Assembly (NCBI GenBank): GCA_004376375.1
Contig: SOJX01000023.1
Location: 36,013 to 100,012, forward strand
From: Planctomycetota bacterium
GTDB taxonomy: Bacteria > Planctomycetota > E44-bin39
Reading direction: 5' to 3'
DNA length: 64,000 bases
Shown: in pieces, positions 443-54,017 of the stretch
Position numbering within the stretch: position 1 is the stretch's first letter
Layout: the number at the start of each line of letters is the position of its first letter
Notes under the pieces: generated by a model
What the model saw: the letters and a program-made list of their open reading frames with translations, nothing else
The model's database searches: none
Told to the model about the DNA's origin: nothing
Program-made: the position numbers and the translations under genes

Positions 443-515
443 ATTGTACCCTGAAACACCGGGAGTGCAAGAAGAAGGGACAAGGTAATAAGGGATAAGG
501 TAATATGGTCCGAGA

Positions 516-746
516 CTAGGTTGTTTTGAGTCGCTGCATGGGGGTGCGTCTGCCCATTCTGGTGCCGAGCTTGAGCTGCCAGACGCGGCGCAGGTTCATC
601 ATGTCGCGGCGGCCGGCCATGGCCCACGCGCTGGAGGTCGCGGTGTGGCTTGCGCCGTTGCCGCCGGTGAATCCGGTCTGTTCCGTACTCAGGTATGCAT
701 TTATCGCAGAGACAATAGCTGCAATCTTTTTCGAATCAATATCCAT
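516..746 (-). CDS. small hypothetical protein (76 aa)
   Basis: ORF begins MDIDSKKIAAIVSAINAYL. It is bracketed by inverted heptamer arrays (TAAGGGATAAGG at about 475-500, CCTTATTCCCTTATT at about 860-905). Coding status is uncertain in this high-GC context. Confidence 0.25.
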   Translation of the reverse strand: MDIDSKKIAAIVSAINAYLSTEQTGFTGGNGASHTATSSAWAMAGRRDMMNLRRVWQLKLGTRMGRRTPMQRLKTT

Positions 747-888
747 TTTGCCTCTTTGCTTTTAAAACACAAGCGGCTCATGCCGCTCTCAGTGTTTTTT
801 TGCTTACAGAATGTTAACCCATGGCTCGAGTTTTGTCAAGGTTTTTCTGCGCAGGATTGTTCCCTTTGTTCCTTATTCCCTTATTCCC

Positions 889-5904: not shown

Positions 5905-6724
5905 CGGAAACATCGTCATAAGCTTCGAGAACGCGTACAAAACGCTTTCCGGGCGCAATGTGCTCGACGGCATGACGTTCGACGTCAGGCGCGGCGAGAC
6001 GTTCGTCATCATCGGACCTTCCGGGATGGGGAAATCGGTCACGCTCAAGCACATGGTCGGCCTGATGCGGCCGGACGACGGCGAAGTCATTATCAGCGAC
6101 GAAGGCGAAGGCGGGCGGGTGAGATACGACGTTTCCCATCTGAAACCAATCCAGCTCGAGCGGCTGCGCGCAATCTTCGGTTACCTTTTCCAGGACGGCG
6201 CCCTCCTCGCCTCGCTCACGGTAGGTGAAAACGTCGCGCTGCCTTTATTCGAGAGGCGATTGCACGTCTTCCGCGAAAAGTACGGCCGCAGAAACGCTGA
6301 AAATAAAATCTGGGAGCGGGTCAGGGAAAAGCTCGGCATGGTCGACATGGTGCACGCCATCGACAACCTGCCGGCCGAGCTCTCGGGCGGTATGAGGAAA
6401 CGCGCGGGACTCGCCCGCGCCATCATACACGAGCCGAAGATAATCCTTTACGACGAGCCGACAAGCGGACTCGACCCCGTGATGGGCACGAACATCAACC
6501 GGCTGATACGACACCTCCAGGAAAAGCTCGGTGTAACAAGCCTGGTCGTCACGCACGATATCGACAGCGCATACTACGTCGGAGACCGCATCGCCATGAT
6601 TAACAGGGGACGCATGGAGCAGATCGGAACGCCGGATGAAATAAAAAACACGACCAATCCCGTCGTAAGACAGTTTATCGAGGGGAATATCGAAGGCCCG
6701 CTTACCGCTGGAAGAAAGCACTAA
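5894..6724 (+). CDS. mlaF: ABC transporter ATP-binding protein, MlaF family
   Basis: Walker A GPSGMGKS, signature LSGGMRKR, Walker B ILYDEPTSGLD. Overlaps the mlaE stop. Confidence 0.9.
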   Translation: MDANGNIVISFENAYKTLSGRNVLDGMTFDVRRGETFVIIGPSGMGKSVTLKHMVGLMRPDDGEVIISDEGEGGRVRYDVSHLKPIQLERLRAIFGYLFQDGALLASLTVGENVALPLFERRLHVFREKYGRRNAENKIWERVREKLGMVDMVHAIDNLPAELSGGMRKRAGLARAIIHEPKIILYDEPTSGLDPVMGTNINRLIRHLQEKLGVTSLVVTHDIDSAYYVGDRIAMINRGRMEQIGTPDEIKNTTNPVVRQFIEGNIEGPLTAGRKH

Positions 6725-6763
6725 AAAAAGAAACAGGGAAACAAGAAAACAGGGGAATAAGTA

Positions 6764-7147
6764 GTGGGGAAAAGTTTTGAAGATCTTGAAGTATGGAAAC
6801 TGGCAAGGAAATTACGGGTGGACATCTATGACATTACGGAGAGCTTTCCATCACGCGAAAAGTATTCTCTTGTGAGTCAAATGCGACGGGCTGTACTCTC
6901 TGTTCCGGGCAATATAGCGGAAGGATACGGCAGATATCACTATAAGGAAAACATTCAGATGTGCAGGATTGCACGAGGCTCTTTGAACGAGTTGATTGAT
7001 TATTTATTCGCATCTGTGGATACAAAATACATTACTCAGGCGGTTTTCGAAACTCTTTACGCACAGGCAAGGGAAGTGGAAAAGGTTCTGAACGGATATA
7101 TAAAGTATTTGCAGAAACAGGCCGGCAAGGAAAAAGAGAAAGAATAA
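6764..7147 (+). CDS. four-helix-bundle protein (TIGR02436, 23S rRNA intervening-sequence protein family)
   Basis: MGKSFEDLEVWKLARKL...FPSREKYSLVSQMRRAVLSVPGNIAEG is characteristic of the family. Inserted between mlaF and mlaD and flanked by inverted AACAAGG/CCTTGTT tandem arms (6725-6760 and 7150-7200). Confidence 0.8.
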   Translation: MGKSFEDLEVWKLARKLRVDIYDITESFPSREKYSLVSQMRRAVLSVPGNIAEGYGRYHYKENIQMCRIARGSLNELIDYLFASVDTKYITQAVFETLYAQAREVEKVLNGYIKYLQKQAGKEKEKE

Positions 7148-7206
7148 GTTCTTTACCTGTTTCCTTGTTGTCTTGTTCCCTTGTTACCTGTTTGAGGACT
7201 ATTATC

Positions 7207-9097: not shown

Positions 9098-9130
9098 GTA
9101 GGGGCGGGTCTCAGACCCGCCCAATTCTTT
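9098..9130. terminator. GC-rich hairpin between convergent mlaD and lipoprotein genes (putative bidirectional terminator)
   Basis: GGGGCGGGTC-TCA-GACCCGCC stem-loop followed by AATTCTTT. Confidence 0.5.
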
Positions 9131-10610: not shown

Positions 10611-12029
10611 ATGAACCAGGATTTACTGCGCCTTGTGGATGTTATTCACAGGGACAAGAACATCGAGAAAGACATCATCTTCAGCGGCATCGAGGCGTGC
10701 CTGCTCTCGGCCGCGCGCAAGAACCTGGGCACCACTGACGATGTCGAAGTAACGATCGACCATGAAAGCGGCGATATCGTTATAACATGTAACGGAACGC
10801 CGCTTGACCCGAAAATGCTGGGCCGAATATCCGCGCTAACCGGCAAGCAGGTCCTCATCCAAAAGATAAAGGAAGCGGAGTCTAACACCATTTTCGAGGA
10901 CTATTCCGTAAAGCTCGGACAGGTCGTTACCGCGCAGGTGCAGCGCTTCGAGGGGCCGAACGTCATTGTAAACCTCGGCAAGACCGAGGGCTTTCTGCCC
11001 CGCAGACAGCAGATTCCGGGCGAAACGTACCAGCCGGGCGAGCGCCTCAAGCTCTTCATCACCGAGGTCAAGAAATCGGGCCAGAGGGTGAAGATAATGC
11101 TTTCGAGGGCGCACGCCGATTTCATACGCGCCCTCTTCGAGATCGAGGTGCCCGAGATAGCCGAGGCGATTATCGAGATCAAATCACTCGCCCGCGAGCC
11201 CGGCTACCGCACAAAGATAGCCGTACGCTCCCTCGACCCGAAGGTTGACTGCGTCGGCGCGTGCGTCGGCGTCCGCGGCGCGAGGATTCGCAGCATCGTC
11301 GACGAGCTCAACGGAGAGAAAATCGACATCATCAAGTGGAGCGATTCGCCGGAAGTGCTCATCATGAACTCTCTCAAGCCGGCGGAGATCGATGCCATTA
11401 CGCTCGACTACGAAAACGGCCGGGCACAGGTTATCGTCGACGAAAGCCAGCTCTCGCTCGCCATCGGGCGGCGCGGGCAGAACGTGCGGCTGGCCGCGAA
11501 ACTTTCCGGCTGGGAGCTCGACATCGTCAGCCCCGATAAAATCGCGGCCGGAGAAGCAATCGACATCGGCCTCATCGACGAGGAAGACCTTAAGAAAAAA
11601 CCGAACAAAAAACTCACGGCCGAGCAGGTCTTCGGCCCGGATAACGACGAGACGCAGGAAACGGACGCGGCGAAAGAGAAAGCTGAAGATACCGAGGCCG
11701 CAACCGAAGACGCGCCCGAAACTGAGGAAGATACCAAGGCGGAAACCGAAGACGCGCCCGGGACTGAGGAAGATACCAAGGCGGAAACCGAAGACGCGCC
11801 CGGGACTGAAGATGATTCAGAACCGGATTCGGCAGAGGATTCCGGTGAGTCGGAAGTAAAATCCGAGACGGACGACCTCGCGCAGTGCGCGGAAAAAGCC
11901 GTTTCGGACGCTGAAGAAGCGGTTCCCGACGACGAAGCGGATGAGACACCGCAGTCGGAAGAACCTGAAAAGGAAACAATTGACGCTCAACCAGAGAGCG
12001 TAACGGACGACGGCGATGAGACGACCTGA
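10611..12029 (+). CDS. nusA: transcription termination/antitermination factor NusA
   Basis: Full-length NusA with S1 and KH regions and an acidic C-terminal tail encoded by a tandem 48-bp DNA repeat (11700-11815). Confidence 0.95.
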   Translation: MNQDLLRLVDVIHRDKNIEKDIIFSGIEACLLSAARKNLGTTDDVEVTIDHESGDIVITCNGTPLDPKMLGRISALTGKQVLIQKIKEAESNTIFEDYSVKLGQVVTAQVQRFEGPNVIVNLGKTEGFLPRRQQIPGETYQPGERLKLFITEVKKSGQRVKIMLSRAHADFIRALFEIEVPEIAEAIIEIKSLAREPGYRTKIAVRSLDPKVDCVGACVGVRGARIRSIVDELNGEKIDIIKWSDSPEVLIMNSLKPAEIDAITLDYENGRAQVIVDESQLSLAIGRRGQNVRLAAKLSGWELDIVSPDKIAAGEAIDIGLIDEEDLKKKPNKKLTAEQVFGPDNDETQETDAAKEKAEDTEAATEDAPETEEDTKAETEDAPGTEEDTKAETEDAPGTEDDSEPDSAEDSGESEVKSETDDLAQCAEKAVSDAEEAVPDDEADETPQSEEPEKETIDAQPESVTDDGDETT

Positions 12030-14760: not shown

Positions 14761-14866
14761 AGAAGTACCAAGTACCGAGTACCGGGTACCGAGTGAAGAA
14801 TACCGTGATTATATTCTACTCGATACTCGGTACTCGGTACTTGGTACTTGGTACTTGGTACTTCTT
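14761..14866. repeat. about 100-nt imperfect hairpin built from GGTACTC/GAGTACC heptamer arrays, between infB and the DUF503 gene
   Basis: Left arm GAAGTACCAAGTACCGAGTACCGGGTACCGAGTGAAGAATA. Right arm TATTCTACTCGATACTCGGTACTCGGTACTTGGTACTTGGTACTTGGTACTTC. The right arm overlaps the DUF503 RBS and start. Confidence 0.85.
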
Positions 14867-15149: not shown

Positions 15150-15234
15150 AGAGGTCGTCCGGTCCTTCGGTCATGTATTTTTATTAAATACTCTTGACCG
15201 ATTGACCGAAGGACCGAGTGACCGAAGGACCATT
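15141..15234. repeat. imperfect hairpin built from GGTCCTTCGGTC/GACCGAAGGACC arrays between the DUF503 gene and rbfA
   Basis: GGTCGTCCGGTCCTTCGGTCA ... TGACCGATTGACCGAAGGACCGAGTGACCGAAGGACC. Confidence 0.8.
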
Positions 15235-16591: not shown

Positions 16592-16665
16592 GCGCCTGTT
16601 CTCAGTAGTTAGTCGTTAGTGATTAATAATATAGACTAACGACTAACCACTAACCACTAACAACC
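16592..16665. repeat. hairpin of AGTTAGTCGTTAGTG / CACTAACGACTAACC arrays in the 5-prime UTR of the acyl-CoA dehydrogenase gene
   Basis: Inverted arms around an AT-rich loop (TTAATAATATAG). Confidence 0.75.
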
Positions 16666-21721: not shown

Positions 21722-21890
21722 CATCGGTTATTGGTTATTGGTTATTGGTTATTGGTTAAAAATATGGGAAGCACCACGCCGGAAGGCGTGGTGACAATTG
21801 AGCGGGCGGGCTTGCCCGCCGTTAAAACAAAATTCGGGCGGGTCGCCGACCCGCCCAACACATAACGCGCGAAGCTCATTTGATTGGTGG

Positions 21891-22721: not shown

Positions 22722-22855
22722 AAAGTATGAAGGATGAAGGATAAAGGATGAAATTTATATTTAATAATTCTTAATTCATATTTCAGACTTCACACTTCTG
22801 CCTTCATACTTCAGCCTTCATACTTCATCCTTTCTTTACGGTTCGCGCTCTGAAT
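22722..22855. repeat. long hairpin of AGTATGAAGGATGAAGG / CCTTCATACTTCAT arrays between convergent genes
   Basis: AGTATGAAGGATGAAGGATAAAGGATGAAA ... CTTCATACTTCAGCCTTCATACTTCATCCTTTC around an AT-rich loop. Confidence 0.8.
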
Positions 22856-25217: not shown

Positions 25218-25300
25218 CAAGCGAAAAGGAAGTGCTGGAGTGCTGGCGTGCTGGAGTGCTGGCGTGCTGGAGTGCTGGGGTGCTGGGGTGCTGGAGTTAG
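25218..25300. repeat. tandem array of nine (A/G)GTGCTGG octamers
   Basis: GTGCTGGAGTGCTGGCGTGCTGG and so on. The same unit appears in reverse complement at 10365-10430 and 40525-40560. Confidence 0.85.
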
Positions 25301-28136: not shown

Positions 28137-28310
28137 TGCGCTGTCACAAAAAGTTCACTAATTATTCAGTTATTCAGTTACCCGGTTATTCAGTTATTCA
28201 GTTACCCGGTTATTCAGTTATTCAGTTAAAAATAAAACTGAATAACTGAATTACTGAATTACTGAATAACCAAAATAGCTGATAGCTGATAGCTGAACGC
28301 TGACAGCTCA
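28137..28310. repeat. hairpin of CAGTTATTCAGTTA / TAACTGAATAACTG arrays followed by a TAGCTGA tandem array
   Basis: Inverted arms 28137-28200 and 28215-28265. Then TAGCTGATAGCTGATAGCTGAACGCTGACAGCTCA. Confidence 0.8.
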
Positions 28311-29134: not shown

Positions 29135-29821
29135 GTGAGTACTCGTGTGGCAATACTATTACCATGCCCGAAGTGCGGCAAACGCGTAAACCTTCAGAAC
29201 GAGTACGCTGGCAAAAAGTGGAAGTGCGCGGGCTGCAAGCTCAAATTCCGCGTACCGGACCCGAAGAGACACAAGCTCGGTTCCGTTAAATGCACCTGCG
29301 GAAGCATGATCGAGACGTGGGACGTTTTCGCAAAAGAGGGGGTATTCTGCCCGGGGTGCAAAAAAATCTACTCCTCCGGCAAGGCCTCAAAACTGCCGTC
29401 CATAATTCCCGTCGGGGGGAAGAAAAAGAAAGGAAAAGAAAAAAAGAAAAAGAAGGAAAAGAAAAAAGCACGTCCTTCCCCTGCCCCCGAAGTCCTGGAA
29501 ATCCCCGAGCTGGAAGTCGACGACGAAGACCTGCTGCTTAACGTGGAAGAGGAAGTGATAGACGGGGCGGAACTCCTGATCGAAAACGATCTGGAGCTTG
29601 CCGACGAAATCAAACTTGTTGAAAACATCGAGCATGTTGAAAACATCGAGCTTGTTGAAGACATCGAGCATGTTGAAAACATCCAGCTTGTTGAAGAGAT
29701 CGAGCTTGTTTCAGACGAACAGGAAAAGCTCCCGTTTCCCGACCGCCGCAGAGGCGCCCGCAGAAAAGGCGACAGGCGCAAGGGCGACCGCCGCAAAGGC
29801 GGCAGAAGGAAAAGCGAATAA
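29135..29821 (+). CDS. double zinc-ribbon protein with poly-Lys, acidic pentapeptide repeats and Arg-rich tail
   Basis: CPKCG...CAGC and CTCG...CPGC ribbons. Repeats of VENIEH/VEDIEL are encoded by six tandem 15-bp DNA repeats (29610-29710). C-terminal RRKGD repeats. Confidence 0.55.
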   Translation: MSTRVAILLPCPKCGKRVNLQNEYAGKKWKCAGCKLKFRVPDPKRHKLGSVKCTCGSMIETWDVFAKEGVFCPGCKKIYSSGKASKLPSIIPVGGKKKKGKEKKKKKEKKKARPSPAPEVLEIPELEVDDEDLLLNVEEEVIDGAELLIENDLELADEIKLVENIEHVENIELVEDIEHVENIQLVEEIELVSDEQEKLPFPDRRRGARRKGDRRKGDRRKGGRRKSE

Positions 29822-30035
29822 GAATTATGAAGTATGAAGTATGAAGGCTGAAGTATGAAAAAGAATTGTAAATTGAGAATTGTAGATTGAGAATTGCAAA
29901 TTGGAAATTGTCAATACTCAATTTCCAATACTCAATTCGCAAACGGAAAGGACGAATTAAGAATTATTAAATATAAATTTTATCCTTCATCCTTCATACT
30001 TCATACTTCATACTTTATCCTTCATCCTTTGTTTA
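29822..30035. repeat. nested double hairpin: outer ATGAAGTATGAAGG arms, inner AATTGAGAATTGTAGATTGAG arms
   Basis: Outer arms 29825-29855 and 29970-30035. Inner arms 29860-29905 and 29905-29945. Directly upstream of the GH lipoprotein gene. Confidence 0.8.
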
Positions 30036-36292: not shown

Positions 36293-36363
36293 CAATTATA
36301 ATAGGCCAATGCAGGTCTTCCAGGTTCTTAACTTATAACTTTTAACTTAAAACTTATAACTGA

Positions 36364-37551: not shown

Positions 37552-38313
37552 TTAAAGTTCGGTCTTTTTCAGGATTTCGGAGACCGCTCTCACTGCCGGC
37601 GAATCGGCCGGCAGATCCAGAAGCGAATCGCCGTTCATGTTGGCGGCCATAACCGCTTCGTCGTCCGGTATTCTGCCGAGGTATTCTGCAGACCCGGTTC
37701 CGGTCAGTTTTTCTTCCATCGATTCGGGCACGCCCGCGCCCGCGACGACGTATACGTATTTGAACGTCACGCCGACCTCGCCGAGAATCACGCGGGAGCG
37801 GTCGAGGTTTGCGCGCGCTTTTTTCGACGCGTCGACAATCTGGATTATCGCGTCGACGTCACTGAAGAGTTTGCGGTTGAGATGCTCGAGCCCGCCCGGC
37901 GAATCGACTACGACGTAATCGTAACCGTTGACCAGACCCTCCATAATGCTTCGCAGCGTGTTGTTTGCGCTACAGTAACAGCCGCGGTCCCACTTCGTAC
38001 CGAGCGCGACAAGGTCGAACTTCTTACTTTCGTAAAACTCATTATGAAAGAGGTATTCGACCTGCTCGGTAAATGGAAGGTTTCCGACCGAGTCCGAAAC
38101 TTTTTTCTTTTTTATATCGTAAAGCAGGTCGCTAATGGTCCTGATGCCGGCAGCCTCGAGGTCAACGCCAAGCATCTCGGCCAGTGAAGTGTCGGGGTCG
38201 GCGTCGACGGCAAGGATTCTGCCGCCGCCTTTTTCGGCAAAGTGTTTAATGGCAAGCGCGGCAAAAGTGGACTTGCCGACGCCGCCTCTTCCTGTTACGA
38301 CCATGATGGCCAC
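37552..38313 (-). CDS. CooC-like P-loop ATPase (MinD/ParA superfamily)
   Basis: Deviant Walker A GRGGVGKST. Size and layout match CooC-type maturation ATPases. Confidence 0.7.
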   Translation of the reverse strand: MAIMVVTGRGGVGKSTFAALAIKHFAEKGGGRILAVDADPDTSLAEMLGVDLEAAGIRTISDLLYDIKKKKVSDSVGNLPFTEQVEYLFHNEFYESKKFDLVALGTKWDRGCYCSANNTLRSIMEGLVNGYDYVVVDSPGGLEHLNRKLFSDVDAIIQIVDASKKARANLDRSRVILGEVGVTFKYVYVVAGAGVPESMEEKLTGTGSAEYLGRIPDDEAVMAANMNGDSLLDLPADSPAVRAVSEILKKTEL

Positions 38314-38430
38314 TTATTCCTCCCAGCGCACAACAAACTTGTTAAGTCCAGACGCGGCGACAAGACGACAAGGAGACCCGGCGACAAGGAGACAAGGAGA
38401 AATATTCTATTTTAAGAATTTCAAGGCTCG

Positions 38431-38820
38431 TCATTTTTTGCTTTCCCCTATAATCCAGTCTTCAGGCTTATTAATCATTATTACCAGCTGTGAGCAAACA
38501 TGCTCGTATTTGTTCGACAATTCCGCTGCTATTGCGCTATCAAGATACTTGCATCGGACTGCAATTTCGATCCATGTCTCAGTTTCAGCAGCTTCACTCT
38601 CCGAGTCATTGAGTTTGCTTATGAATGCCGCCTTATACCGCCTTTTCCTCCAGGCCTCTGCAATATTGGCTGCAACTGACCTGGATGATCTGCGTATCTG
38701 ATCGGTTAACGAATATTTCTCTTCAGGTGGAAACTTTTTGGATATCTCAAATATTTCCATTGCCAGTTCAAACGCTGCCTGCCAGACCCTTAGTTCTTTG
38801 AAGTGATTTATTTTCCCCAT
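38431..38820 (-). CDS. four-helix-bundle protein (TIGR02436, 23S rRNA intervening-sequence protein family)
   Basis: MGKINHFKELRVWQAAFELAMEIF...PPEEKYSLTDQIRRSSRSVAANIAEA. Flanked by inverted GACAAGG/CCTTGTC tandem arms (38330-38400 and 38840-38880). Confidence 0.8.
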   Translation of the reverse strand: MGKINHFKELRVWQAAFELAMEIFEISKKFPPEEKYSLTDQIRRSSRSVAANIAEAWRKRRYKAAFISKLNDSESEAAETETWIEIAVRCKYLDSAIAAELSNKYEHVCSQLVIMINKPEDWIIGESKK

Positions 38821-38918
38821 TTTCTCTCCGAAAGCCTTGTTTTATTTTCGCCTTGTCTCCTTGTCTCCTTGTCAACTTGTCTGAGCGCTCAACACATTAT
38901 CGTCCAAACAGGCAGAAC

Positions 38919-39476
38919 TTATCGATTGCCAATCAGCGACATGGCCTCGTTACGGGTCGCGATTTTGTCGCGGAAGATGCCGCGGACGACCGAGGTCACC
39001 GTGCGCGCGCCCGGTTTCTTGACGCCGCGCATGGTCATGCAGAGGTGCTCGGCGTCCATGACGACAATCACGCCCTTCGGGTCCAGGTCGCGCATCAGGG
39101 TGTCGGCAATCTGCGAGGTCAGGCGCTCCTGCACCTGGAGCTTGCGGGCGTGGAACTCGACGACGCGCGCAAGCTTGGAGATGCCGCTTATCGATTCTTT
39201 CGGGATATACGCCACGTGGCAGATTCCGAGAAACGGAATCATGTGATGCTCGCATACGGAATAAAACGGGATGTCCCGCACGAGTATGATTTCGTCGTGC
39301 CGCTCGGCGGGCAGTTTCTTGATAATATCCTCATCCGACTTGCCGATGTTGCCGCAGATCTCGCCGTACATCCTGGCGACACGCTCGGGCGTCTCGGCCA
39401 GGCCGGGCCGCTCGGGGTCGTCGCCGAGGCCATCAATCAGCAGGCGAATCGCTTCTTCGATTTTCTTTTCATCCAT
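38919..39476 (-). CDS. folE: GTP cyclohydrolase I
   Basis: FolE core with the CEHHM motif. Confidence 0.95.
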   Translation of the reverse strand: MDEKKIEEAIRLLIDGLGDDPERPGLAETPERVARMYGEICGNIGKSDEDIIKKLPAERHDEIILVRDIPFYSVCEHHMIPFLGICHVAYIPKESISGISKLARVVEFHARKLQVQERLTSQIADTLMRDLDPKGVIVVMDAEHLCMTMRGVKKPGARTVTSVVRGIFRDKIATRNEAMSLIGNR

Positions 39477-40370: not shown

Positions 40371-40374
40371 CTCC

Positions 40375-40470
40375 GGTTATTCGGTTCTTCGGTTACTCGG
40401 TTCTTCGGTTCCTCGGTTATTCGGTTATCCGGTTCTTCGGTTCTTCGGTTCTTCGGTTTTATTTCTTAAG
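40375..40470. repeat. tandem array of about twelve CGGTT(C/A)TT octamers between dapA and pdxJ
   Basis: CGGTTATTCGGTTCTTCGGTTACTCGGTTCTTCGG and so on. Followed by GCGCAGCAAGCTGCGC palindrome, CACTTCAGCACTTCAAC and CATCCTTCATACTTCAT arrays up to 40600. Confidence 0.85.
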
Positions 40471-43359: not shown

Positions 43360-43674
43360 ACGTGCATTTCCGGCCCGTTCGGCGGCATGGTAGCACGGTC
43401 CCGCAAAAGCGGCAAGGGGAAAATAGGGTACGGAGCATCAATCGCGTAAGTTCAGACACGGCAATGGGAAGACACGGTGACAAGGAGACACGGAGAAAAG
43501 GAGACACGGAGAAAAAAGATATATTGACGGAAGGACCGAAAGACCGAAGGACCAAAGGACCAATAGACCACTTCACAAAAATGAAAAAAATTCTCGAATC
43601 CGCGTTTGAATCGGTTACAATACCCACTGTAAGGAGTACCCAGCCTGGAAGAATCTTCACCTGAGGGGGATAAC

Positions 43675-45197: not shown

Positions 45198-45405
45198 CGG
45201 CCGCGCTTGCGCGGCGCTGAATAAAAAAAGGAAAACAAGGGAACAAGAAAACAAGGAAACAAGGAAGAAAGGAATAAGGAAATGGTAGGACAGACATTCC
45301 TGTCTGTCCATAAGATAACGCGCGAAGCTCCTTAACCCTTGTTGCCTTGTCAACCTGTTACCTTGTCACTTCCCCAGTCAACGCGCCGCAAGCGGCGCCG
45401 CTAAC
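45193..45405. repeat. composite nested palindromic element with no gene inside
   Basis: GTTAGCGGCCGCGCTTGCGCGGCGCTGAA (45193-45221) and its inverted copy (45378-45405) bracket the AACAAGG array (45225-45285), the GGACAGACATTCCTGTCTGTCC palindrome (45289-45310), TAACGCGCGAAGCTC (45316-45330) and the CCTTGTT array (45335-45370). Confidence 0.85.
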
Positions 45406-49888: not shown

Positions 49889-49916
49889 TTGACAATATCT
49901 CAATTATGCGTATAAT
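49889..49916 (+). promoter_or_regulatory. sigma-70-like promoter upstream of the first YfbK-like VWA gene (TTGACA-16-TATAAT)
   Basis: Sits in a 260-bp AT-rich intergenic region. Confidence 0.5.
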
Positions 49917-49971
49917 CCTGATAGAAAGCCTGCGATGTTCAAATTATCGAATTCAAAAAAGGAGAAGTGTT

Positions 49972-51945
49972 ATGACAGCAGGAAAAAAGGAAATCGAGAG
50001 CATTTTCAACAGTAAAGGGAAGCGCAGGTGGATTGGATCATCAGGTGTTTTTCTTTTCTCCATCGGGTTTCACGCCCTTGTTTTGCTCGTCGCAGCGGGA
50101 ATCACGTTCTGCCTGGCGGTGAAGAAAAAGGATATAACTTTTTCTATCAAACGTGAAACCAAGGTGCAGGAGTACGACCCCGAACTCGTGCGCGATATTT
50201 TCAAAAGGCCGAGAGTCCTCGCCGACAGGATTGTAGAAAGACCGATCATAATGCTTGAAGATGAAATCGAAATCACAAAAGACATCCCGCTTGGGACCAG
50301 CTTCGACAGCCTGTCCAACAAACACCTTGAATCCGACTCGATTATCGATGCTTATGGAAGCATCGGCGGCGCTTCCGGCGCCTACGGAGAAAAGGCGCCT
50401 GGCGGAAGTAGTTATTGCATGTGCTGGGGTGCTTGCGGCAGTTGTTCAGCAGAATCAGCCAAAACGCCTGAGGAAAAAGGTCCGCACGCGATTTTCTATC
50501 TGGACAACGGGGAGAATCCGTTCATCGACGCGAGCTGGGACCGCCTCTCCACCTTCGCCATAGACGTTGACACGGCGTCATACACGATAGCGAGAGACTA
50601 TATTAAGAAAGGCGAACTCCCGCCGAAAAAAACCGTCCGCATCGAAGAATTCATTAACTACATGAATTACGAATACACATCCCCCTGGAACAATAATTTT
50701 GCCATCCACCTCGAAGCCGCGCCGTCGAAGTTCGGGAGGGAAGATGCGCACAAACTCCTCAGGGTTGCCATCAAGGGAATGGACCTGACTTCGAGCGAGC
50801 GCAAACCGGCTGTGCTTACGTTCGTCATCGACGTATCGCAGTCGATGAGCGAGGAAAACCGGCTGGTGCTTGTCAAGAAATCGCTCAAACTTCTTCTGGA
50901 CCAGTTGATGGACGGCGACAAGGTCGGGATTGTTATTTACAGCACCGAGGCGACACTTATTACGGAACCGCTTCCGATATCCGAGCGCGAGAAGCTTGTG
51001 AGCGCGATCGAGAGCCTCCAGATCGACTACTGGACCAACCTCGATGCCGGGCTGATGCTGGGTTACGAAATCGCGGAAAGGCATTTCCAGAGGCATGCGA
51101 CCAACCGCATAATCCTCTGCTCCGACGGTGTGCCCACCAGGGGGGAAACTTCTGCGGAAAAAATCCTGGAGAAGGCGAAAAAGTATATCGAAAAAGGAAT
51201 CAACATCTCAACCATAGGTATCGGGACGGGCCACGACGACGAGTTTATGGAAAAACTTGCCGACAAGGGTAACGGAAACTACGTCTACCTGGATACCTGC
51301 AAAGAGGCAGAACGCCTCTTTGCCGACTGCGCGGTCGGCCTTCTGGAGGTTCTCGGCAGCGATATGAAAGTGCAGGTCGATTTCAATCCCGACGTTGTCG
51401 ACTCTTACCGCCTGCTCGGTTACGAGAACCGGAAGATCGCGGACAAGGATTTCAGGAACGATAAAGTCGACGCGGGCGAGATCGGGCCCGGGCATTCCGT
51501 TACCGCGCTCTACGAGCTGAAGCTGCATGACGACGTTGCGGAAGGCATCGTCGCCACCGTTTTCGTCCGCTACAAAGACCCCGAATACCAGGATGAGGTA
51601 AAGGAAATCAAGCAGAGTTTTCCGCTTGCGAGCATAAGGGAGACATTCGAAGACGCCTCGGCCGATTTCCGCCTCGCCGCGGCGACCGCCGAGCTCGCCG
51701 AGGTCCTGAAAGACAGCTTCTTCGCGCGGGAATCCGACCTCGAGCCGGTGGTGGAGCTCACCGAATACCTTGCACACGAGATGTACGACAGGGAAGACGT
51801 TCAGGACCTGGCCAAGCTTGTCAAGAAAGCAAGAGAGGTCCGGACGGATAAGGTTCAAAAGCGCGTCGCTCTTGAGAGAAGCGAAGATAACGTCAGCAGA
51901 ATACCACGCGACAAAAGCGCGATAATAGTCGGCATACCCCGATAA
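49972..51945 (+). CDS. von Willebrand factor A domain protein, YfbK-like (N-terminal TM, VWA, DUF3520-like C-terminus)
   Basis: MIDAS motif DVSQSMS, VWA fold, and a conserved C-terminal domain. Start at ATG 49972 downstream of a TTGACA-16-TATAAT promoter. Confidence 0.8.
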   Translation: MTAGKKEIESIFNSKGKRRWIGSSGVFLFSIGFHALVLLVAAGITFCLAVKKKDITFSIKRETKVQEYDPELVRDIFKRPRVLADRIVERPIIMLEDEIEITKDIPLGTSFDSLSNKHLESDSIIDAYGSIGGASGAYGEKAPGGSSYCMCWGACGSCSAESAKTPEEKGPHAIFYLDNGENPFIDASWDRLSTFAIDVDTASYTIARDYIKKGELPPKKTVRIEEFINYMNYEYTSPWNNNFAIHLEAAPSKFGREDAHKLLRVAIKGMDLTSSERKPAVLTFVIDVSQSMSEENRLVLVKKSLKLLLDQLMDGDKVGIVIYSTEATLITEPLPISEREKLVSAIESLQIDYWTNLDAGLMLGYEIAERHFQRHATNRIILCSDGVPTRGETSAEKILEKAKKYIEKGINISTIGIGTGHDDEFMEKLADKGNGNYVYLDTCKEAERLFADCAVGLLEVLGSDMKVQVDFNPDVVDSYRLLGYENRKIADKDFRNDKVDAGEIGPGHSVTALYELKLHDDVAEGIVATVFVRYKDPEYQDEVKEIKQSFPLASIRETFEDASADFRLAAATAELAEVLKDSFFARESDLEPVVELTEYLAHEMYDREDVQDLAKLVKKAREVRTDKVQKRVALERSEDNVSRIPRDKSAIIVGIPR

Positions 51946-52025
51946 TCAGCCGATTATCCGGCATACAGTCTATGCAGAACTGAAGATTGGACTCAGATTA
52001 TGTTGTTATAAAAAGGAGAAGTGTT

Positions 52026-54017
52026 GTGAAAGAAGGAAAAAGGGAAATTGAAACCAACGCTCTCAGTCAATGTATTCAAAACCGGCTTGGATCGTCGGGT
52101 ATATTCTTTTTCTCTCTCGGGCTCCATGGTTTTCTGATCCTCATTGCCACGGGAATCACTCTCTTTCTGGTTGAAAAGGAAAAAGACATAACACTGACGT
52201 TCAAACGCGAAGCCAGAGAAGAGCAATATGACCCAGAGATCGCGCGCTGGATTTTCAAAACGCCGAGAATCCTCGCAAACCGAATAATTGAAAAACCCAT
52301 ATTAATTTTCGAAGAAGAAGTCGAAATTTCAAGGGACATTACGCGAGGAACAAGTTTCGACAGTCTGGCAAATAAAAACATTAACGCCAGGTCAATTATT
52401 GACGCCTATGGAATGGGAGGAAAAGCAGCCGGCGTTTACGGCCAGCGCTGGGGTAAAGGAGGCGTTATATTATGCGAAGGAGGGTCTCCCGGCAGCTGCG
52501 CATGCTGCATAGGCGGTTGCACGGGTTCACTCGCGCATCCTGAAGACGAAGGGCGAAGCGCCATATTCTTTCTCGACAGCGGCGAAAACCCGTTTATCGA
52601 TACCAGTTGGGACCACCTCTCCACTTTCGCTATAGACGTCGACACTGCCTCATACACGATGGCGAGAAGCTATATTGAAAAAGGCGAACTCCCACCCAAG
52701 AAATCCATCCGCATTGAAGAGTTCATTAACTACATGAACTATGAATACACTTCTCCCTGGAGCGACGTGATAGCGATCCACCTCGAGGCCGCGCCTTCGA
52801 AATTCGGCAGGGAAGACGCGCACAAGCTGATGCGAGTCGCCGTAAAAGGGCTGGAGGCGAATATGGCTGACCGCCGGAACGCTGTTCTCACATATGTTAT
52901 TGACATTTCCGGCTCAATGTCCAGCGCAAACCGCCTGCCGTTAGTAAAGAAATCGCTCAAGCTGCTTCTTGAGCAGTTGACGGACGGCGACAAGGTCGGA
53001 ATTATCGTATACAGTGACGATGCAAAAGTCGTCACCGAACCGCTGCCGATAGCGGAACGCGAGAAGCTAATCAAAACCATCGACAGCCTCGAGACTGAAG
53101 GGTCTACCAACGTAGAGGCTGGGTTGATGCTTGGTTATGAAATGGCGGACAGGCATTTCCGGAAACATGCAATAAACCGCATTATTCTGTGCTCCGACGG
53201 CATCGCCAACACGGGGGAAACGTCTGCGGAAAAAATCCTCCAAAAGGTGAAAACCTACAAGGAGAAAGGCATCTATATTTCAACAATAGGTTTTGGCATC
53301 GATCATAACGACGATCTGATGGAAAAACTGGCTGACAAGGCAGACGGTGTTTACGCGTATATCGATACACCGGACGAGGCAACACGCCTTTTCGTTAACA
53401 ATACAATGGGCATTATGGGCGTCCTCGCGAAGGACATGAAAGTGCAGGTGGACTTCAATCCCGACGTTGTCGACTCTTACCGCCTGCTCGGTTACGAGAA
53501 CCGGAAGATCGCGGACAAGGATTTCAGGAACGATAAAGTCGACGCGGGCGAGATCGGGCCCGGGCATTCCGTTACCGCGCTCTACGAGCTGAAGCTGCAT
53601 GACGACGTTGCGGAAGGCATCGTCGCCACCGTTTTCGTCCGCTACAAAGACCCCGAATACCAGGATGAGGTAAAGGAAATCAAGCAGAGTTTTCCGCTTG
53701 CGAGCATAAGGGAGACATTCGAAGACGCCTCGGCCGATTTCCGCCTCGCCGCGGCGACCGCCGAGCTCGCCGAGGTTCTGAAGGACAGCTTCTTCGCGCG
53801 GGAATCCGATCTCGAGCCTGTGGTGGAGCTTACCGAATACCTTGCACACGAGATGTACGACCGGGAAGAAGTCAAGGAGCTTGCCGGGTTGGTAAAGAAA
53901 GCAAGGAATATCCGGCAGAAGACCATGCAAAAGCGCGTCGCTCTTGAGAGAAGCGAAGACAACGTCAGCAGAATACCGCGCGACAAAAGCGCGGTCATAG
54001 TCGGCCTGCCGAGATAA
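52026..54017 (+). CDS. von Willebrand factor A domain protein, YfbK-like, tandem paralog
   Basis: MIDAS DISGSMS. The C-terminal roughly 175 codons are nearly identical at the DNA level to the upstream paralog (53448-53773 matches 51375-51700). GTG start at 52026. Confidence 0.8.
   Translation: MKEGKREIETNALSQCIQNRLGSSGIFFFSLGLHGFLILIATGITLFLVEKEKDITLTFKREAREEQYDPEIARWIFKTPRILANRIIEKPILIFEEEVEISRDITRGTSFDSLANKNINARSIIDAYGMGGKAAGVYGQRWGKGGVILCEGGSPGSCACCIGGCTGSLAHPEDEGRSAIFFLDSGENPFIDTSWDHLSTFAIDVDTASYTMARSYIEKGELPPKKSIRIEEFINYMNYEYTSPWSDVIAIHLEAAPSKFGREDAHKLMRVAVKGLEANMADRRNAVLTYVIDISGSMSSANRLPLVKKSLKLLLEQLTDGDKVGIIVYSDDAKVVTEPLPIAEREKLIKTIDSLETEGSTNVEAGLMLGYEMADRHFRKHAINRIILCSDGIANTGETSAEKILQKVKTYKEKGIYISTIGFGIDHNDDLMEKLADKADGVYAYIDTPDEATRLFVNNTMGIMGVLAKDMKVQVDFNPDVVDSYRLLGYENRKIADKDFRNDKVDAGEIGPGHSVTALYELKLHDDVAEGIVATVFVRYKDPEYQDEVKEIKQSFPLASIRETFEDASADFRLAAATAELAEVLKDSFFARESDLEPVVELTEYLAHEMYDREEVKELAGLVKKARNIRQKTMQKRVALERSEDNVSRIPRDKSAVIVGLPR

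What the first reader, a model, noticed from the sequence alone, without database searches (positions are those of the whole stretch)
38314..38918. Second four-helix-bundle cassette, with GACAAGG/CCTTGTC inverted arms, between the CooC-like gene and folE
A paralogous 129-aa TIGR02436 protein lies on the minus strand in a co-directional gene block. It is flanked by GACAAGACGACAAGGAGACCCGGCGACAAGGAGACAAGGAG on the left and CCTTGTCTCCTTGTCTCCTTGTCAACTTGTC on the right.

The two cassettes share protein family and architecture but use different, related arm units. That is consistent with independent insertions or with arm sequence evolving locally. Two copies in 64 kb implies many copies genome-wide.
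Basis: partly seen in the sequence, partly recalled or inferred. Interest (0 to 1): 0.65.

Follow-up and report, generated by a model that had tools for sequence, protein, structure and literature searches.

The report
Mobile four-helix-bundle gene cassette with octamer-repeat arms
A roughly 600-base selfish gene cassette has inserted between two genes of a biosynthetic operon: it holds one small four-helix-bundle protein gene bracketed by complementary arrays of an 8-base repeat, and the same gene-plus-arms unit turns up in at least eight bacterial phyla without, as far as I could find, having been described as a mobile element.

Summary
ORF 38431-38820(-) encodes a 129-aa PF05635/TIGR02436 protein, flanked by complementary period-8 arrays.

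Two syntenic relatives join folE directly to cooC, with gaps of 15 and 9 nt. The ~600 nt here is therefore an insertion. The paralogous cassette at 6764-7147 also has an empty site in a relative.

The arms belong to the mobile unit:
- The closest homologue (79% aa) sits in an unrelated MoxR-DUF58 operon but has the same GGAGACAAGG-type arms.
- Two contigs of one MAG carry copies 97% identical through the ORF and into the arms, with unrelated flanks.

Among 76 homologous loci from at least eight phyla:
- 60 have three or more GA-NNN-GG units upstream of the gene (controls: 4 of 69).
- The variable triplets match between the two arms of a locus.

The ORF is under purifying selection. No transposase, integrase or reverse transcriptase lies in the window.

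My best reading is an intervening-sequence-like selfish cassette living in operons rather than in rRNA. How it moves and what the arms do (RNA stem or DNA/protein-binding array) remain inferred.

This genome also carries 7-8-nt repeat arrays in nearly every intergenic region, and those arrays are absent from relatives. Copy number genome-wide could not be tested.

The parts
38322..38925 (-). The whole inserted cassette, about 600 nt, relative to the empty folE-cooC junctions of relatives.
   Evidence: Alignment with L085 and L086 loses homology after folE ...ATTGGCAA and regains it at the cooC ribosome-binding region AGGAATAA-GTG. Boundaries are good to a few nt, because the relatives' 9-15-nt spacers are themselves variable.
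38884..38918 (-). Outer 5' segment. It is non-repetitive and follows the folE stop codon.
   Evidence: It pairs with 38314-38349 in both the MFE and the centroid fold. Duplex energy is -21.8 vs -14.2 +/- 3.1 for shuffles. It contains a weak promoter-like match, 9 of 12.
38835..38883 (-). 5' arm. On the sense strand it reads as a purine-rich period-8 array: CAGACAAGTTGACAAGGAGACAAGGAGACAAGGCGAAAATAAAACAAGG.
   Evidence: The unit fits the family consensus GA-N-R-N-GG-R.
38821..38834 (-). Leader carrying a Shine-Dalgarno-like GGAGAG 5-10 nt before the ATG.
   Evidence: Read directly from the sequence. An SD-like motif lies within -4..-18 of the start in 57 of 78 related loci, against 12% at control positions.
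38431..38820 (-). Gene for a 129-aa four-helix-bundle protein (PF05635 / TIGR02436; S23p/Avd superfamily).
   Evidence: HMM matches are. The AlphaFold model has pLDDT 93 with four helices. Foldseek finds 2GSC (TM 0.81-0.92), 2RLD and bAvd 4DWL. dN/dS between relatives is 0.03-0.39.
38401..38430 (-). AT-rich spacer between the stop codon and the 3' arm.
   Evidence: Read directly from the sequence.
38349..38400 (-). 3' arm. On the sense strand it reads as a pyrimidine-rich period-8 array: TCTCCTTGTCTCCTTGTCGCCGGGTCTCCTTGTCGTCTTGTCGCCGCGTCTG.
38314..38348 (-). Outer 3' segment. It includes the cooC ribosome-binding site GGGAGGA (38318-38324).
   Evidence: It pairs with the outer 5' segment. The imperfect direct repeat TGTTGTGCGCT (38325-38335) matches TGTTGAGCGCT (38884-38894). 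Both copies lie inside the insertion, so this is not a target duplication.
6724..7193 (+). Paralogous cassette 1. It consists of a 5' arm at 6724-6754 (GAAACAGG type), ORF 6764-7147 (127 aa, PF05635) and a 3' arm at 7158-7193. It sits between MlaF-like and MlaD-like genes.
   Evidence: The empty or differently occupied site in relatives is shown.
45222..45370 (+). Gene-less hairpin whose arms resemble those of cassette 1. It is a possible ORF-less derivative.
   Evidence: The 5' arms align at score 47 (shuffle maximum 29) and the 3' arms at 29 (maximum 24). The corresponding gap is 229 nt here and 24 nt in L086.
43455..43515 (+). Solitary array of the cassette-2 unit type (GACACGG/GACAAGG). 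It has no complementary partner nearby.
   Evidence: It is 84% identical to 38359-38402 (family D4). The best inverted partner is 1.8 kb away and scores only 21.

Best explanation
This is an intervening-sequence-like selfish gene cassette. It is a discrete ~600-nt unit made of one expressed four-helix-bundle gene (PF05635/TIGR02436) and two terminal arms. The arms are inverted arrays of a degenerate octamer: on the sense strand GA-N-R-N-GG-R upstream of the gene and its complement downstream. About 30 nt of unique complementary sequence lies outside each arm.

Shown:
- The unit was inserted into the folE-cooC junction of a dapA-folE-cooC operon in this lineage.
- The arms move with the gene.
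- The same architecture accompanies this gene subfamily in at least eight phyla and on plasmids.
- The protein is kept by purifying selection.
- The unit encodes no recombinase.

Inferred:
- Once transcribed as part of the host operon, the arms and outer segments close a long imperfect helix that loops the cassette out. rRNA intervening sequences carry the same gene family and are excised by RNase III. By that analogy, the helix would let the cassette be processed away from the host message, so the insertion is tolerated.
- The last units of the purine-rich 5' array supply the ribosome-binding site of the cassette gene.
- Movement must depend on factors supplied in trans, either a host recombination or replication template-switch at the hairpin-forming arms or an unlinked enzyme.
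- Gene-less hairpins with similar arms may be its non-autonomous derivatives.

My confidence in the 'shown' part is about 0.85. For the RNA-helix/RNase III role it is about 0.35.
For: Insertion:
- Empty sites exist in two syntenic relatives, with gaps of 15 and 9 nt.
- The second cassette also has an empty site, a 4-nt gap in L091.

The unit includes the arms:
- W2 and L084 are 79% identical in protein and sit in unrelated operons, yet they share GGAGACAAGG/GGAGACCNGG arms and CAGAC...GTCTG termini.
- L066 and L067, two contigs of assembly CAYXCW01, are 97% identical over the ORF. The alignment stays near-identical into the arms, and similarity is lost in the flanks.
- L020 (Okeania) and L021 (Trichodesmium) have ORFs 97% identical, while their distal flanks are unrelated.

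Family-wide architecture in 76 loci:
- The own-arm inverted-repeat score has a median of 37, against 21.6 with another locus's arm and 16.6 for shuffles.
- Lag 8 is the best period in 55 upstream and 52 downstream flanks.
- Three or more GA-NNN-GG units lie upstream in 60 of 76 loci, against 4 of 69 controls.
- The upstream flank is purine-rich in 71 of 76 loci.
- The variable triplets overlap by 0.46 between the arms of a locus, against 0.14 for permuted partners (0 of 1000 permutations reached the observed value).

RNA fold of the cassette: the arms pair in both the MFE and the centroid structure, with a z-score of -3.35.

Protein:
- HMM matches and fold are consistent with the family.
- dN/dS is 0.03-0.39.
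- The ORF is AT-richer than its flanks in 72 of 80 loci.
- Homologues are found on 43 plasmids, 15 of them conjugative.

Precedents in the literature:
- The Coxiella and Leptospira rRNA IVS is a selfish element. It is bordered by complementary sequences, carries an S23p ORF and is excised by RNase III (PMC4990558).
- 23S_rRNA_IVP genes have been found wedged inside cas operons (PMC3936711).
Against: - There is no direct evidence of RNA processing.
- Mismatches between arms show no G.U bias on the sense strand: 112 sense-compatible vs 125 antisense-compatible. Complementarity is therefore not visibly tuned for the sense RNA.
- Within sets of orthologous loci, a locus's own arms pair no better than arms swapped between orthologues (36 vs 33; own better in 11 of 19). 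There is thus no short-term compensatory signal.
- Co-orientation with neighbouring genes is only 64-66% by a rough gene-calling proxy. Many copies therefore cannot depend on read-through from an upstream operon.
- No mobility enzyme was found. None lies within +/-10 kb by precomputed Pfam, and none is among the 29 large ORFs scanned in the rest of the window.
- No target-site duplication was found.
- Repeat arrays of many other unit types fill this genome's intergenic regions without any such gene. The arms are therefore not exclusive to cassettes.
- The 97% pair L066/L067 relies on MAG binning for the 'same genome' claim.
Confidence: 0.6

Rival explanations
1. The arms work on DNA, not RNA. 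They would be arrays of binding sites, spaced 8 bp apart, for a multimeric protein. That protein could be the cassette's own pentameric four-helix-bundle protein or a host nucleoid protein such as IHF/HU. The protein would pair the two ends, as subterminal repeat arrays do in some transposons, so that a trans-acting enzyme or a replication template switch copies or moves the unit.
For: - Each unit has a conserved core (GA..GG-R) and a free 3-nt spacer.
- There is no G.U bias in arm mismatches.
- Arm complementarity is shared at the level of the variable triplet. This fits copying of one arm from the other.
- The solved homologues 2GSC and 2RLD each have five chains, and the literature describes a homopentameric toroid.
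- Paired tandem TCTCCGTS octamers in Geobacter metallireducens were interpreted as IHF/HU sites. IS110-family elements sit at fixed distances from the related class 1 octamer sites (GTTGCTYN) (PMC2700814).
- Co-orientation with host genes is only moderate.
Against: - No binding data exist for any family member on such repeats.
- The polarity (purine-rich array upstream of the gene in 71 of 76 loci) and the SD-like content of the units are explained more simply at the RNA or translation level.
- The only biochemically characterised relative, Avd, works with RNA and a reverse transcriptase. This rests on my own knowledge and on PMC10053308.
Confidence: 0.22
2. The arms are just two of this genome's ubiquitous intergenic tandem-repeat hairpins, a host-level feature such as terminators, RNA stabilisers or regulator sites. 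On this view the four-helix-bundle gene merely landed inside one.
For: - The window holds about 41 arrays of 7-8-nt units, many of them forming gene-less hairpins.
- A different small ORF (516-746, -) is bracketed in the same way.
- The MlaF-MlaD junction carries a gene-less (GACCNNNG)n element in close relatives.
- In the related loci, arrays also occur away from the cassette at 0.29 per kb.
Against: - The empty folE-cooC sites in relatives have no hairpin at all.
- The arm type is shared by W2 and L084 in unrelated contexts, and by L066 and L067.
- The unit consensus is family-specific across phyla.
- Array density is about 5.6-fold higher within 300 nt of the cassette than elsewhere in the same loci. 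This ratio is derived from the counts.
Confidence: 0.1
3. This is an ordinary, vertically inherited small gene of the operon, and its flanking inverted repeats are a local regulatory element or a chance feature.
For: The gene is co-directional and tightly packed with its neighbours, and the protein is under purifying selection.
Against: - It is absent from both syntenic relatives.
- Its closest homologues lie in unrelated contexts and in other phyla.
- Its G+C is 11 points below the window's.
- None of 500 shuffles reached the arm duplex energy.
Confidence: 0.03
4. This is a remnant or accessory gene (Avd) of a diversity-generating retroelement.
For: There are weak matches to the bAvd-like Pfam family (26.5 bits) and to NCBIfam DivGenRetAVD (24 bits). 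The fold resembles 4DWL.
Against: - Both scores are below the curated cutoffs (40 and 80).
- No reverse transcriptase is on record within +/-10 kb, and none is among the other large ORFs of the window.
- There is no template/variable repeat pair in the window.
Confidence: 0.02

Closest known systems
rRNA intervening sequences (IVS) carrying an S23p ORF (Coxiella burnetii, Leptospira, Brucella; PMC4990558)
   Same: The protein family is the same (PF05635). Both are small insertions of 0.4-0.7 kb bordered by complementary sequences that form a long stem with the ORF in the loop. Both have a sporadic, horizontally acquired distribution and encode no recombinase.
   Different: This one lies between protein-coding genes, not in helix 9, 25 or 45 of 23S rRNA. 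Its stem is built from tandem octamers. The ORF is under purifying selection, whereas the Coxiella ORF is decaying and apparently not translated. RNase III excision is shown for IVSs and is only inferred here.
Paired 'class 2 global-regulator binding sites' of Geobacter metallireducens: three tandem TCTCCGTS[Y] repeats on opposite strands, 21 pairs (PMC2700814)
   Same: The octamer is the same as the arm unit of most related cassettes (TCTCCGTG/TCTCCGCG) and close to TCTCCTTG here. The sites are paired in inverted orientation and lie between adjacent genes, including inside operons. They are present in one species and absent from its sister.
   Different: The Geobacter pairs are listed without a gene between them. 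They were read as IHF/HU sites, and no link to four-helix-bundle genes or to mobility was drawn.
Avd, the accessory protein of diversity-generating retroelements (bAvd, PDB 4DWL)
   Same: The four-helix-bundle fold is shared (TM 0.75-0.90) and the proteins are distantly homologous.
   Different: There is no reverse transcriptase and no template/variable repeat pair. The HMM scores are below the Avd cutoffs.
Intergenic short tandem repeats of Cyanobacteria, Beggiatoaceae and Bacteroidetes (STRR; TAACTGA heptamers, PMC4679880)
   Same: These are lineage-specific arrays of 7-nt units that lie close to start codons, have a patchy phylogenetic distribution and have no known function. The window has near-relatives of that unit ((AACTGAAT)n and (TAACTTA)n).
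   Different: Those repeats are almost all direct, unpaired arrays and are not known to carry a gene or to move as a unit.
MITEs / REPINs (PMC3116915) and integron gene cassettes (the latter from my own knowledge)
   Same: All are small units with terminal or internal inverted repeats that depend on an enzyme supplied in trans. ORF-less hairpin derivatives exist. Integron cassettes likewise carry a single, usually promoter-less ORF.
   Different: No parent transposase, RAYT or integrase was identified, and no target duplication was found. The arms flank both sides of the ORF rather than forming one attC. The arms are tandem octamers.
23S_rRNA_IVP genes reported inside cas operons (PMC3936711; also listed as CRISPR-associated in PMC10910872)
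   Same: The gene family is the same and is found wedged between genes of unrelated operons, for example between cmr3 and cmr2.
   Different: Those genes were interpreted as functionally CRISPR-associated. Flanking repeats and insertion were not considered.

Membership tests
PF05635 / TIGR02436 four-helix-bundle protein (23S rRNA IVS protein, S23p) | Profile match above the curated cutoff. | tested here: met
   TIGR02436 scores 111 bits (cutoff 24) and PF05635 scores 117.2 bits (cutoff 33.8).
PF05635 / TIGR02436 four-helix-bundle protein (23S rRNA IVS protein, S23p) | Four-helix-bundle fold like Xcc0516 (2GSC) and BT_0352 (2RLD). | tested here: met
   The model has pLDDT 93 with helices at 11-27, 32-58, 63-89 and 95-117. 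Foldseek matches 2GSC at TM 0.81-0.92 with rmsd 1.3, and 2RLD at TM 0.75-0.86. Sequence hits to both have E about 1e-10.
PF05635 / TIGR02436 four-helix-bundle protein (23S rRNA IVS protein, S23p) | Conserved motif GxxRxxxSxxxNxxE (PMC3936711). | tested here: met
   R44, S48, N52 and E55 are present and invariant in alignment A1. The first position is Q41 rather than G.
PF05635 / TIGR02436 four-helix-bundle protein (23S rRNA IVS protein, S23p) | Homopentameric toroid. | not testable with these tools
   Only a monomer was modelled. The PDB relatives have five chains each, and the literature describes a pentamer.
rRNA intervening sequence (IVS) element | Located inside a 16S or 23S rRNA gene (helix 9, 25 or 45). 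| tested here: not met
   No Rfam family, including rRNA, reaches threshold anywhere in the window. The neighbours are folE and cooC.
rRNA intervening sequence (IVS) element | Bordered by complementary sequences that form a stem with the ORF in the loop. | tested here: met
rRNA intervening sequence (IVS) element | Excised from the primary transcript by RNase III. | not testable with these tools
   This needs transcript-end mapping or an in-vitro RNase III assay.
rRNA intervening sequence (IVS) element | Sporadic presence among close relatives (horizontal acquisition). | tested here: met
   Empty sites are seen in L085, L086 and L091.
Diversity-generating retroelement (Avd component) | Adjacent reverse transcriptase, template/variable repeat pair, and an Avd equivalog score. 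| tested here: not met
   DivGenRetAVD scores 24 bits against a cutoff of 80. No RVT family is on record within +/-10 kb. No reverse transcriptase is found among the other large ORFs. There is no TR/VR-like repeat.
Classical transposon / MITE | Terminal inverted repeats plus a target-site duplication, and a cognate transposase somewhere. | tested here: inconclusive
   Inverted termini are present (CAGAC...GTCTG). No duplication of the target is seen at W2, L066 or L067. No transposase is in the window. The rest of the genome was not available.
Integron gene cassette | A single attC at the 3' end, an array next to intI/attI. | tested here: not met
   Repeats flank both sides of the ORF. No integrase lies within +/-10 kb. 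The host context is a biosynthetic operon.
Paired tandem-octamer sites of the Geobacter 'class 2' type | Three or more tandem TCTCCGTS-like octamers, paired on opposite strands, between adjacent genes. | tested here: met
   The arms here have four to five TCTCCTTG/CGCCGGGT-type units each. Most related loci carry TCTCCGYG units. The Geobacter description comes from PMC2700814. That family is defined only descriptively.

The most novel reading that the evidence does not exclude
The four-helix-bundle genes of this subfamily, together with their octamer arrays, would form a previously unrecognised class of recombinase-less mobile element spread over at least eight phyla.

In this reading the cassette-encoded pentameric protein recognises its own array: one GG-R-GA core every 8 nt, as RNA or single-stranded DNA. 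This would resemble the way toroidal TRAP reads spaced triplets (my own knowledge). The protein-array pair would recruit a trans-acting polymerase, reverse transcriptase or repair pathway to copy the unit.

Gene-less hairpins made of tandem 7-8-mers would be its MITE-like derivatives. On this view they have recently colonised most intergenic regions of this Planctomycetota genome, and they were earlier read as 'global regulator sites' in Geobacter.
Probability: 0.15. Interest if true: 0.85.

Novelty: new variant of a known kind. Interest (0 to 1): 0.68.

Why it matters
PF05635/TIGR02436 is a very large family. A search of 1.84 billion cluster representatives found 13,157 with E <= 1e-3. Its only assigned roles are '23S rRNA IVS protein' and DGR Avd.

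If a large subfamily is in fact a self-contained mobile cassette with octamer-array arms, several open points become testable:
- what the rRNA IVS proteins are for;
- why these genes turn up inside cas and defence operons and have been scored as 'CRISPR-associated';
- what the paired octamer 'global regulator sites' of Geobacter are;
- what the intergenic short tandem repeats of cyanobacteria and other phyla are.

It would also matter for annotation. Many database entries extend the ORF into the 3' arm, producing tails such as SPRVSASPSPR. Insertions of this kind also split operons.

Finally, a mobile element with no recombinase of its own and no target duplication would point to a transposition or copying route that has not been described.

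Tried and rejected
1. Strand-specific wobble test. If the stem were selected in the sense RNA, G.U-compatible mismatches should exceed A.C-compatible ones. They do not (112 vs 125, p 0.44).

2. Compensatory change among orthologous loci, using seven sets and 19 loci. Own-arm pairing is no better than pairing with an orthologue's arm (36 vs 33). My first impression of covariation in copy number (Nostocales 2/4/3 units by eye) shrank to a weak correlation (rho 0.30, p 0.009).

3. Target-site duplication. None was found at W2, L066 or L067. The 11-nt imperfect repeat next to the W2 arms lies inside the insertion.

4. Arm unit derived from the target. The ancestral spacer AGGACAAGA resembles GACAAGGA, but this is a post-hoc match of about 2% chance (my estimate). 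L084 shows that the arm type is carried by the cassette.

5. Rfam. No family matched in the window.

6. Two metagenome scans found nothing: one with the CooC protein and one with a 23-nt cassette pattern. Phage records gave no match.

7. The sigma-70 promoter and terminator scan gave only a weak 9-of-12 promoter-like site after the folE stop. It found no minus-strand terminator between folE and cooC.

8. Literature. I found no paper linking PF05635/TIGR02436 genes to flanking octamer arrays. The library lacks most subscription-journal papers, so absence is not proof.

9. A DGR reading and an integron reading were both rejected on missing components.

10. Co-orientation with neighbours. It is only 64-66% with a crude longest-ORF proxy. 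This is too noisy to decide whether cassettes depend on host transcription.
Full report
WHAT IS THERE

Between them lies ORF 38431-38820 on the minus strand. It encodes 129 aa and matches TIGR02436 (111 bits, cutoff 24) and PF05635 '23S rRNA-intervening sequence protein' (117.2 bits, cutoff 33.8).

The neighbours on the same strand are:
- a CooC/CbiA-type P-loop ATPase (37552-38313);
- GTP cyclohydrolase I FolE (38919-39476);
- DapA and PdxJ upstream of these;
- an HTH/S24 repressor downstream.

Both flanks are period-8 tandem arrays, and they form 49-nt arms that are 76% complementary. As an RNA duplex the arms give -57.2 kcal/mol, against -27.0 +/- 4.2 for shuffles (0 of 500 reached that value). 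The roughly 35-nt unique segments outside the arms are complementary too, with p about 0.02.

Folding the whole 605 nt in the sense orientation pairs the two ends in both the MFE and the centroid structure, with z = -3.35.

The cassette region has 44% G+C, against 55% for the window. The same arrangement occurs in a JGI metagenome contig, an NCBI MAG (Planctomycetota, GCA_030588815.1) and a Logan assembly.

A paralogue lies at 6764-7147(+). It is 127 aa and 35% identical, and it has GAAACAGG-type arms between MlaF-like and MlaD-like genes.

IT IS AN INSERTION

I searched for orthologues of the CooC-like protein and read their contigs.
- L085 (CooC 91% identical) has folE followed by cooC after 15 nt.
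- L086 (69% identical, with full pdxJ-dapA-folE-cooC-HTH synteny) has a 9-nt gap.

Homology with the window stops after folE ...ATTGGCAA and resumes at the cooC ribosome-binding region. About 600 nt (38322-38925) is therefore extra here. L086 is the more distant relative and is also empty, so gain in this lineage is the parsimonious reading.

The other cassette behaves likewise. The MlaF-MlaD gap is 4 nt in L091. In L089 and L090 (95% and 90% MlaF identity) the gap is 132 and 116 nt and is filled by a gene-less (GACCNNNG)n array or hairpin. In the window it is about 440 nt and holds the cassette.

THE ARMS BELONG TO THE UNIT

- The closest protein relative is P0002 (79% identical). It lies between MoxR and DUF58 genes on L084, yet it carries the same arm type and the same CAGAC...GTCTG termini. 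The type is GGAGACCTGGAGACCAGGAGACAAGG... upstream and ...CTTGTCTCCCGGTCTCC... downstream.
- Two contigs of one MAG assembly (L066, L067) carry copies 97% identical over the ORF. The alignment stays near-identical into both arms, similarity is lost in the flanks, and no target duplication is seen.
- L020 (Okeania) and L021 (Trichodesmium) have ORFs 97% identical with unrelated distal flanks.
- L006 has three tandem 613-nt copies, each including about 38 nt of host sequence.

THE ARCHITECTURE IS FAMILY-WIDE

I fetched 80 genomic loci encoding relatives that are 55-73% identical. They come from Cyanobacteria, Planctomycetota, Acidobacteriota, Nitrospirota, Verrucomicrobiota, Abditibacteriota, Desulfobacterales, Ignavibacteriota and candidate phyla.

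Results for the 76 loci with usable flanks:
- The inverted-repeat score between a locus's own flanks has a median of 37. It is 21.6 with another locus's downstream flank and 16.6 for shuffles. Own flanks score higher in 65 of 76 loci.
- Lag 8 is the strongest period in 55 upstream and 52 downstream flanks.
- The upstream flank is more than 60% purine in 71 of 76 loci.
- Units fitting GA-NNN-GG occur three or more times upstream in 60 of 76 loci, against 4 of 69 control segments. The consensus is GA-N-R-N-GG-R.
- The three variable bases are shared between the two arms of a locus (overlap 0.46 vs 0.14 for permuted partners; 0 of 1000 permutations reached the observed value).
- An SD-like motif lies just before the start codon in 57 of 78 loci, against 12% of control positions.
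- In many loci the 5' array begins within a few bases of the upstream gene's stop codon. I read this by eye. The median distance from that stop codon to the cassette start codon is 65 nt.

Further observations:
- Many database proteins carry odd C-terminal tails such as SPRVSASPSPR. These are read-through into the 3' arm.
- Homologues occur on 43 plasmids, mostly of Nostocales, and 15 of those plasmids are conjugative. None was found in phage records.
- The family has 13,157 50%-identity clusters at E <= 1e-3.

THE PROTEIN

The AlphaFold model is confident (pLDDT 93) and shows four helices. It superposes on Xcc0516 (2GSC, TM 0.81-0.92), on BT_0352 (2RLD) and, more distantly, on the DGR protein bAvd (4DWL).

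dN/dS between related copies is 0.03-0.39. The gene is therefore maintained, unlike the decaying ORF of the Coxiella IVS (PMC4990558).

The ORF is AT-richer than its surroundings in 72 of 80 loci, although its G+C tracks that of the host (r = 0.70).

WHAT IS NOT THERE

- No reverse transcriptase, transposase or integrase lies within +/-10 kb according to precomputed Pfam. None is among the 29 further large ORFs scanned against Pfam, and no RNase III gene is among those 29 either.
- There is no template/variable repeat pair.
- No Rfam family matches.
- There is no minus-strand terminator between folE and cooC. The only promoter-like match is a weak one after the folE stop.

THE WIDER SETTING

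The window holds about 41 arrays of 7-8-nt units, or 0.64 per kb. Nearly all are intergenic, and several unit families recur at distant sites.

About ten arrays form hairpins without a four-helix-bundle gene. One of these, at 45222-45370, has arms resembling those of cassette 1. It fills a gap that is 24 nt in L086. Another pair, at 475-505 / 860-906, brackets an unrelated 76-aa ORF.

The syntenic stretches of L085 and L086 have no such arrays. The related loci from other phyla also carry arrays away from the cassette (0.29 per kb), but the density is about 5.6-fold higher next to it. That ratio is derived from the counts.

HOW IT PROBABLY WORKS

Shown: this is a discrete, promoter-poor, recombinase-less unit that inserts between genes, carries its arms with it and encodes a selected protein.

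Inferred, RNA level: the nearest precedent is the rRNA intervening sequence. That is a selfish insertion with the same gene family in the loop of a long stem, and RNase III removes it from the transcript (PMC4990558). On this analogy the arms form the stem that lets the cassette be cut out of, or insulated from, the host operon's message. The terminal GGAG-containing units would serve translation of the cassette gene.

Three results temper this reading:
- Arm mismatches show no G.U bias.
- Orthologous loci show no extra locus-specific pairing.
- Co-orientation with neighbours is only 64-66%.

Inferred, DNA level (the main rival): a role at the DNA level is a serious alternative. The octamers would be an array of binding sites, for the pentameric product itself or for IHF/HU, that pairs the ends. 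This fits the conserved core with a free spacer. It also fits the earlier description of gene-less paired TCTCCGTS octamers in Geobacter metallireducens as putative IHF/HU sites. In that genome IS110-family insertions lie at fixed distances from the related class 1 octamer sites (PMC2700814). How the unit is copied or moved is unknown.

COMPARISON WITH WHAT IS KNOWN

The protein is a clear member of PF05635/TIGR02436.

The element works like an rRNA IVS but fails that family's defining feature, which is location in rRNA. It is not a DGR, an integron cassette or a classical TIR/TSD transposon.

Reports of these genes inside cas operons (PMC3936711) are what an operon-invading cassette would produce. 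So are reports of them as CRISPR-array-associated (PMC10910872).

In the searchable literature I found no description of the gene-plus-octamer-arm unit or of its mobility. The library is incomplete, so this is a provisional statement.

VERDICT

The family-wide architecture appears to be new, and the mechanism is open. I rate it a new variant of a known kind, with interest 0.68.

Caveats:
- Gene calls in the related loci are a longest-ORF proxy.
- The 'same genome' claim for L066 and L067 rests on binning.
- The copy number in the source genome was not measurable.

Noticed in passing
window-wide; e.g. 14764-14863, 15160-15231, 16600-16661, 22723-22832, 25231-25297, 28162-28270, 29822-30029, 40374-40458: About 41 arrays of 7-8-nt tandem repeats (0.64 per kb) fill most intergenic regions. 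They often start within a few bases of a stop codon, and many are paired as gene-less hairpins.

Unit families recur at distant sites: GAAGTAT/AAGGATG, CAGCACTT/AGTGCTGG, GACCGAAG/CGGTTCTT and AGTACCG.

Syntenic relatives at 69-91% protein identity have none.
   Followed up: partly
window 475-906: Complementary arrays (AAGGGATAAGG... at 475-505; CCTTATTCCC... at 860-906) bracket an unrelated 76-aa ORF (516-746, minus strand) that has no Pfam match. The polarity is the same as in the four-helix-bundle cassettes, with the purine array upstream of the ORF.
   Followed up: partly
window 45222-45370: This is a gene-less hairpin whose arms resemble those of cassette 1. Its loop holds a GC-rich hairpin, GGACAGACATTCCTGTCTGTCC. 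The gap it fills is 229 nt here and 24 nt in relative L086.
   Followed up: partly
L089 1467-1600; L090 1991-2108; L091 4846-4851: The MlaF-MlaD junction that holds cassette 1 in the window is empty in one relative. In two closer relatives it carries a (GACCNNNG)n array or hairpin. The same site has therefore been occupied by different repeat elements within a narrow lineage.
   Followed up: yes
window 28236-28270 and 36329-36361: The arrays (AACTGAAT)n and (TAACTTA)n are close to the TAACTGA heptamer direct repeats described in Beggiatoaceae, Cyanobacteria and Bacteroidetes (PMC4679880).
   Followed up: no
window 10207, 19510, 25295, 45192; also about 9102-9123 and 21836-21856: There are dispersed GC-rich hairpin families: TGTTAGCGGCGCCGCTTGCGCGGCG... 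and GGGCGGGTC..GACCCGCCC. They look like terminators or REP elements and often lie next to repeat arrays.
   Followed up: no
L006 2826-4740: A Desulfobacterales MAG has three tandem 613-nt copies of a cassette. Each is separated by the same ~38 nt of the upstream host gene's 3' end (pattern A-B-A-B-A-B-A). This could be amplification by unequal crossing-over or an assembly effect.
   Followed up: partly
16 of 76 related loci, e.g. L008, L018, L034, L069: A second purine-type array sits between the ORF and the 3' arm. The 3' arm therefore has two alternative pairing partners: a local hairpin or closure around the ORF.
   Followed up: no
L005, L014, L015, L087: Several cassettes lie immediately upstream or downstream of DUF499-type genes. 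L087 is annotated as such. For L005, L014 and L015 I recognised the conserved MAK(L/Q)PWK..WHEV N-terminus by eye, so that assignment is untested. Others lie among PIN, DUF433 or recombinase genes on plasmids. These settings are accessory or defence-like.
   Followed up: no
window 49906-54017: Two tandem paralogous genes (679 and 676 aa; VWA + YfbK_C domains) are 72-79% identical at the DNA level.
   Followed up: no
window 11657-11824 and 29594-29719: There are in-frame coding tandem repeats. A 42-nt unit is repeated 3 times in the C-terminal part of the NusA-like gene. An 18-nt unit is repeated 5 times in ORF 29135-29821, which has no Pfam match.
   Followed up: no
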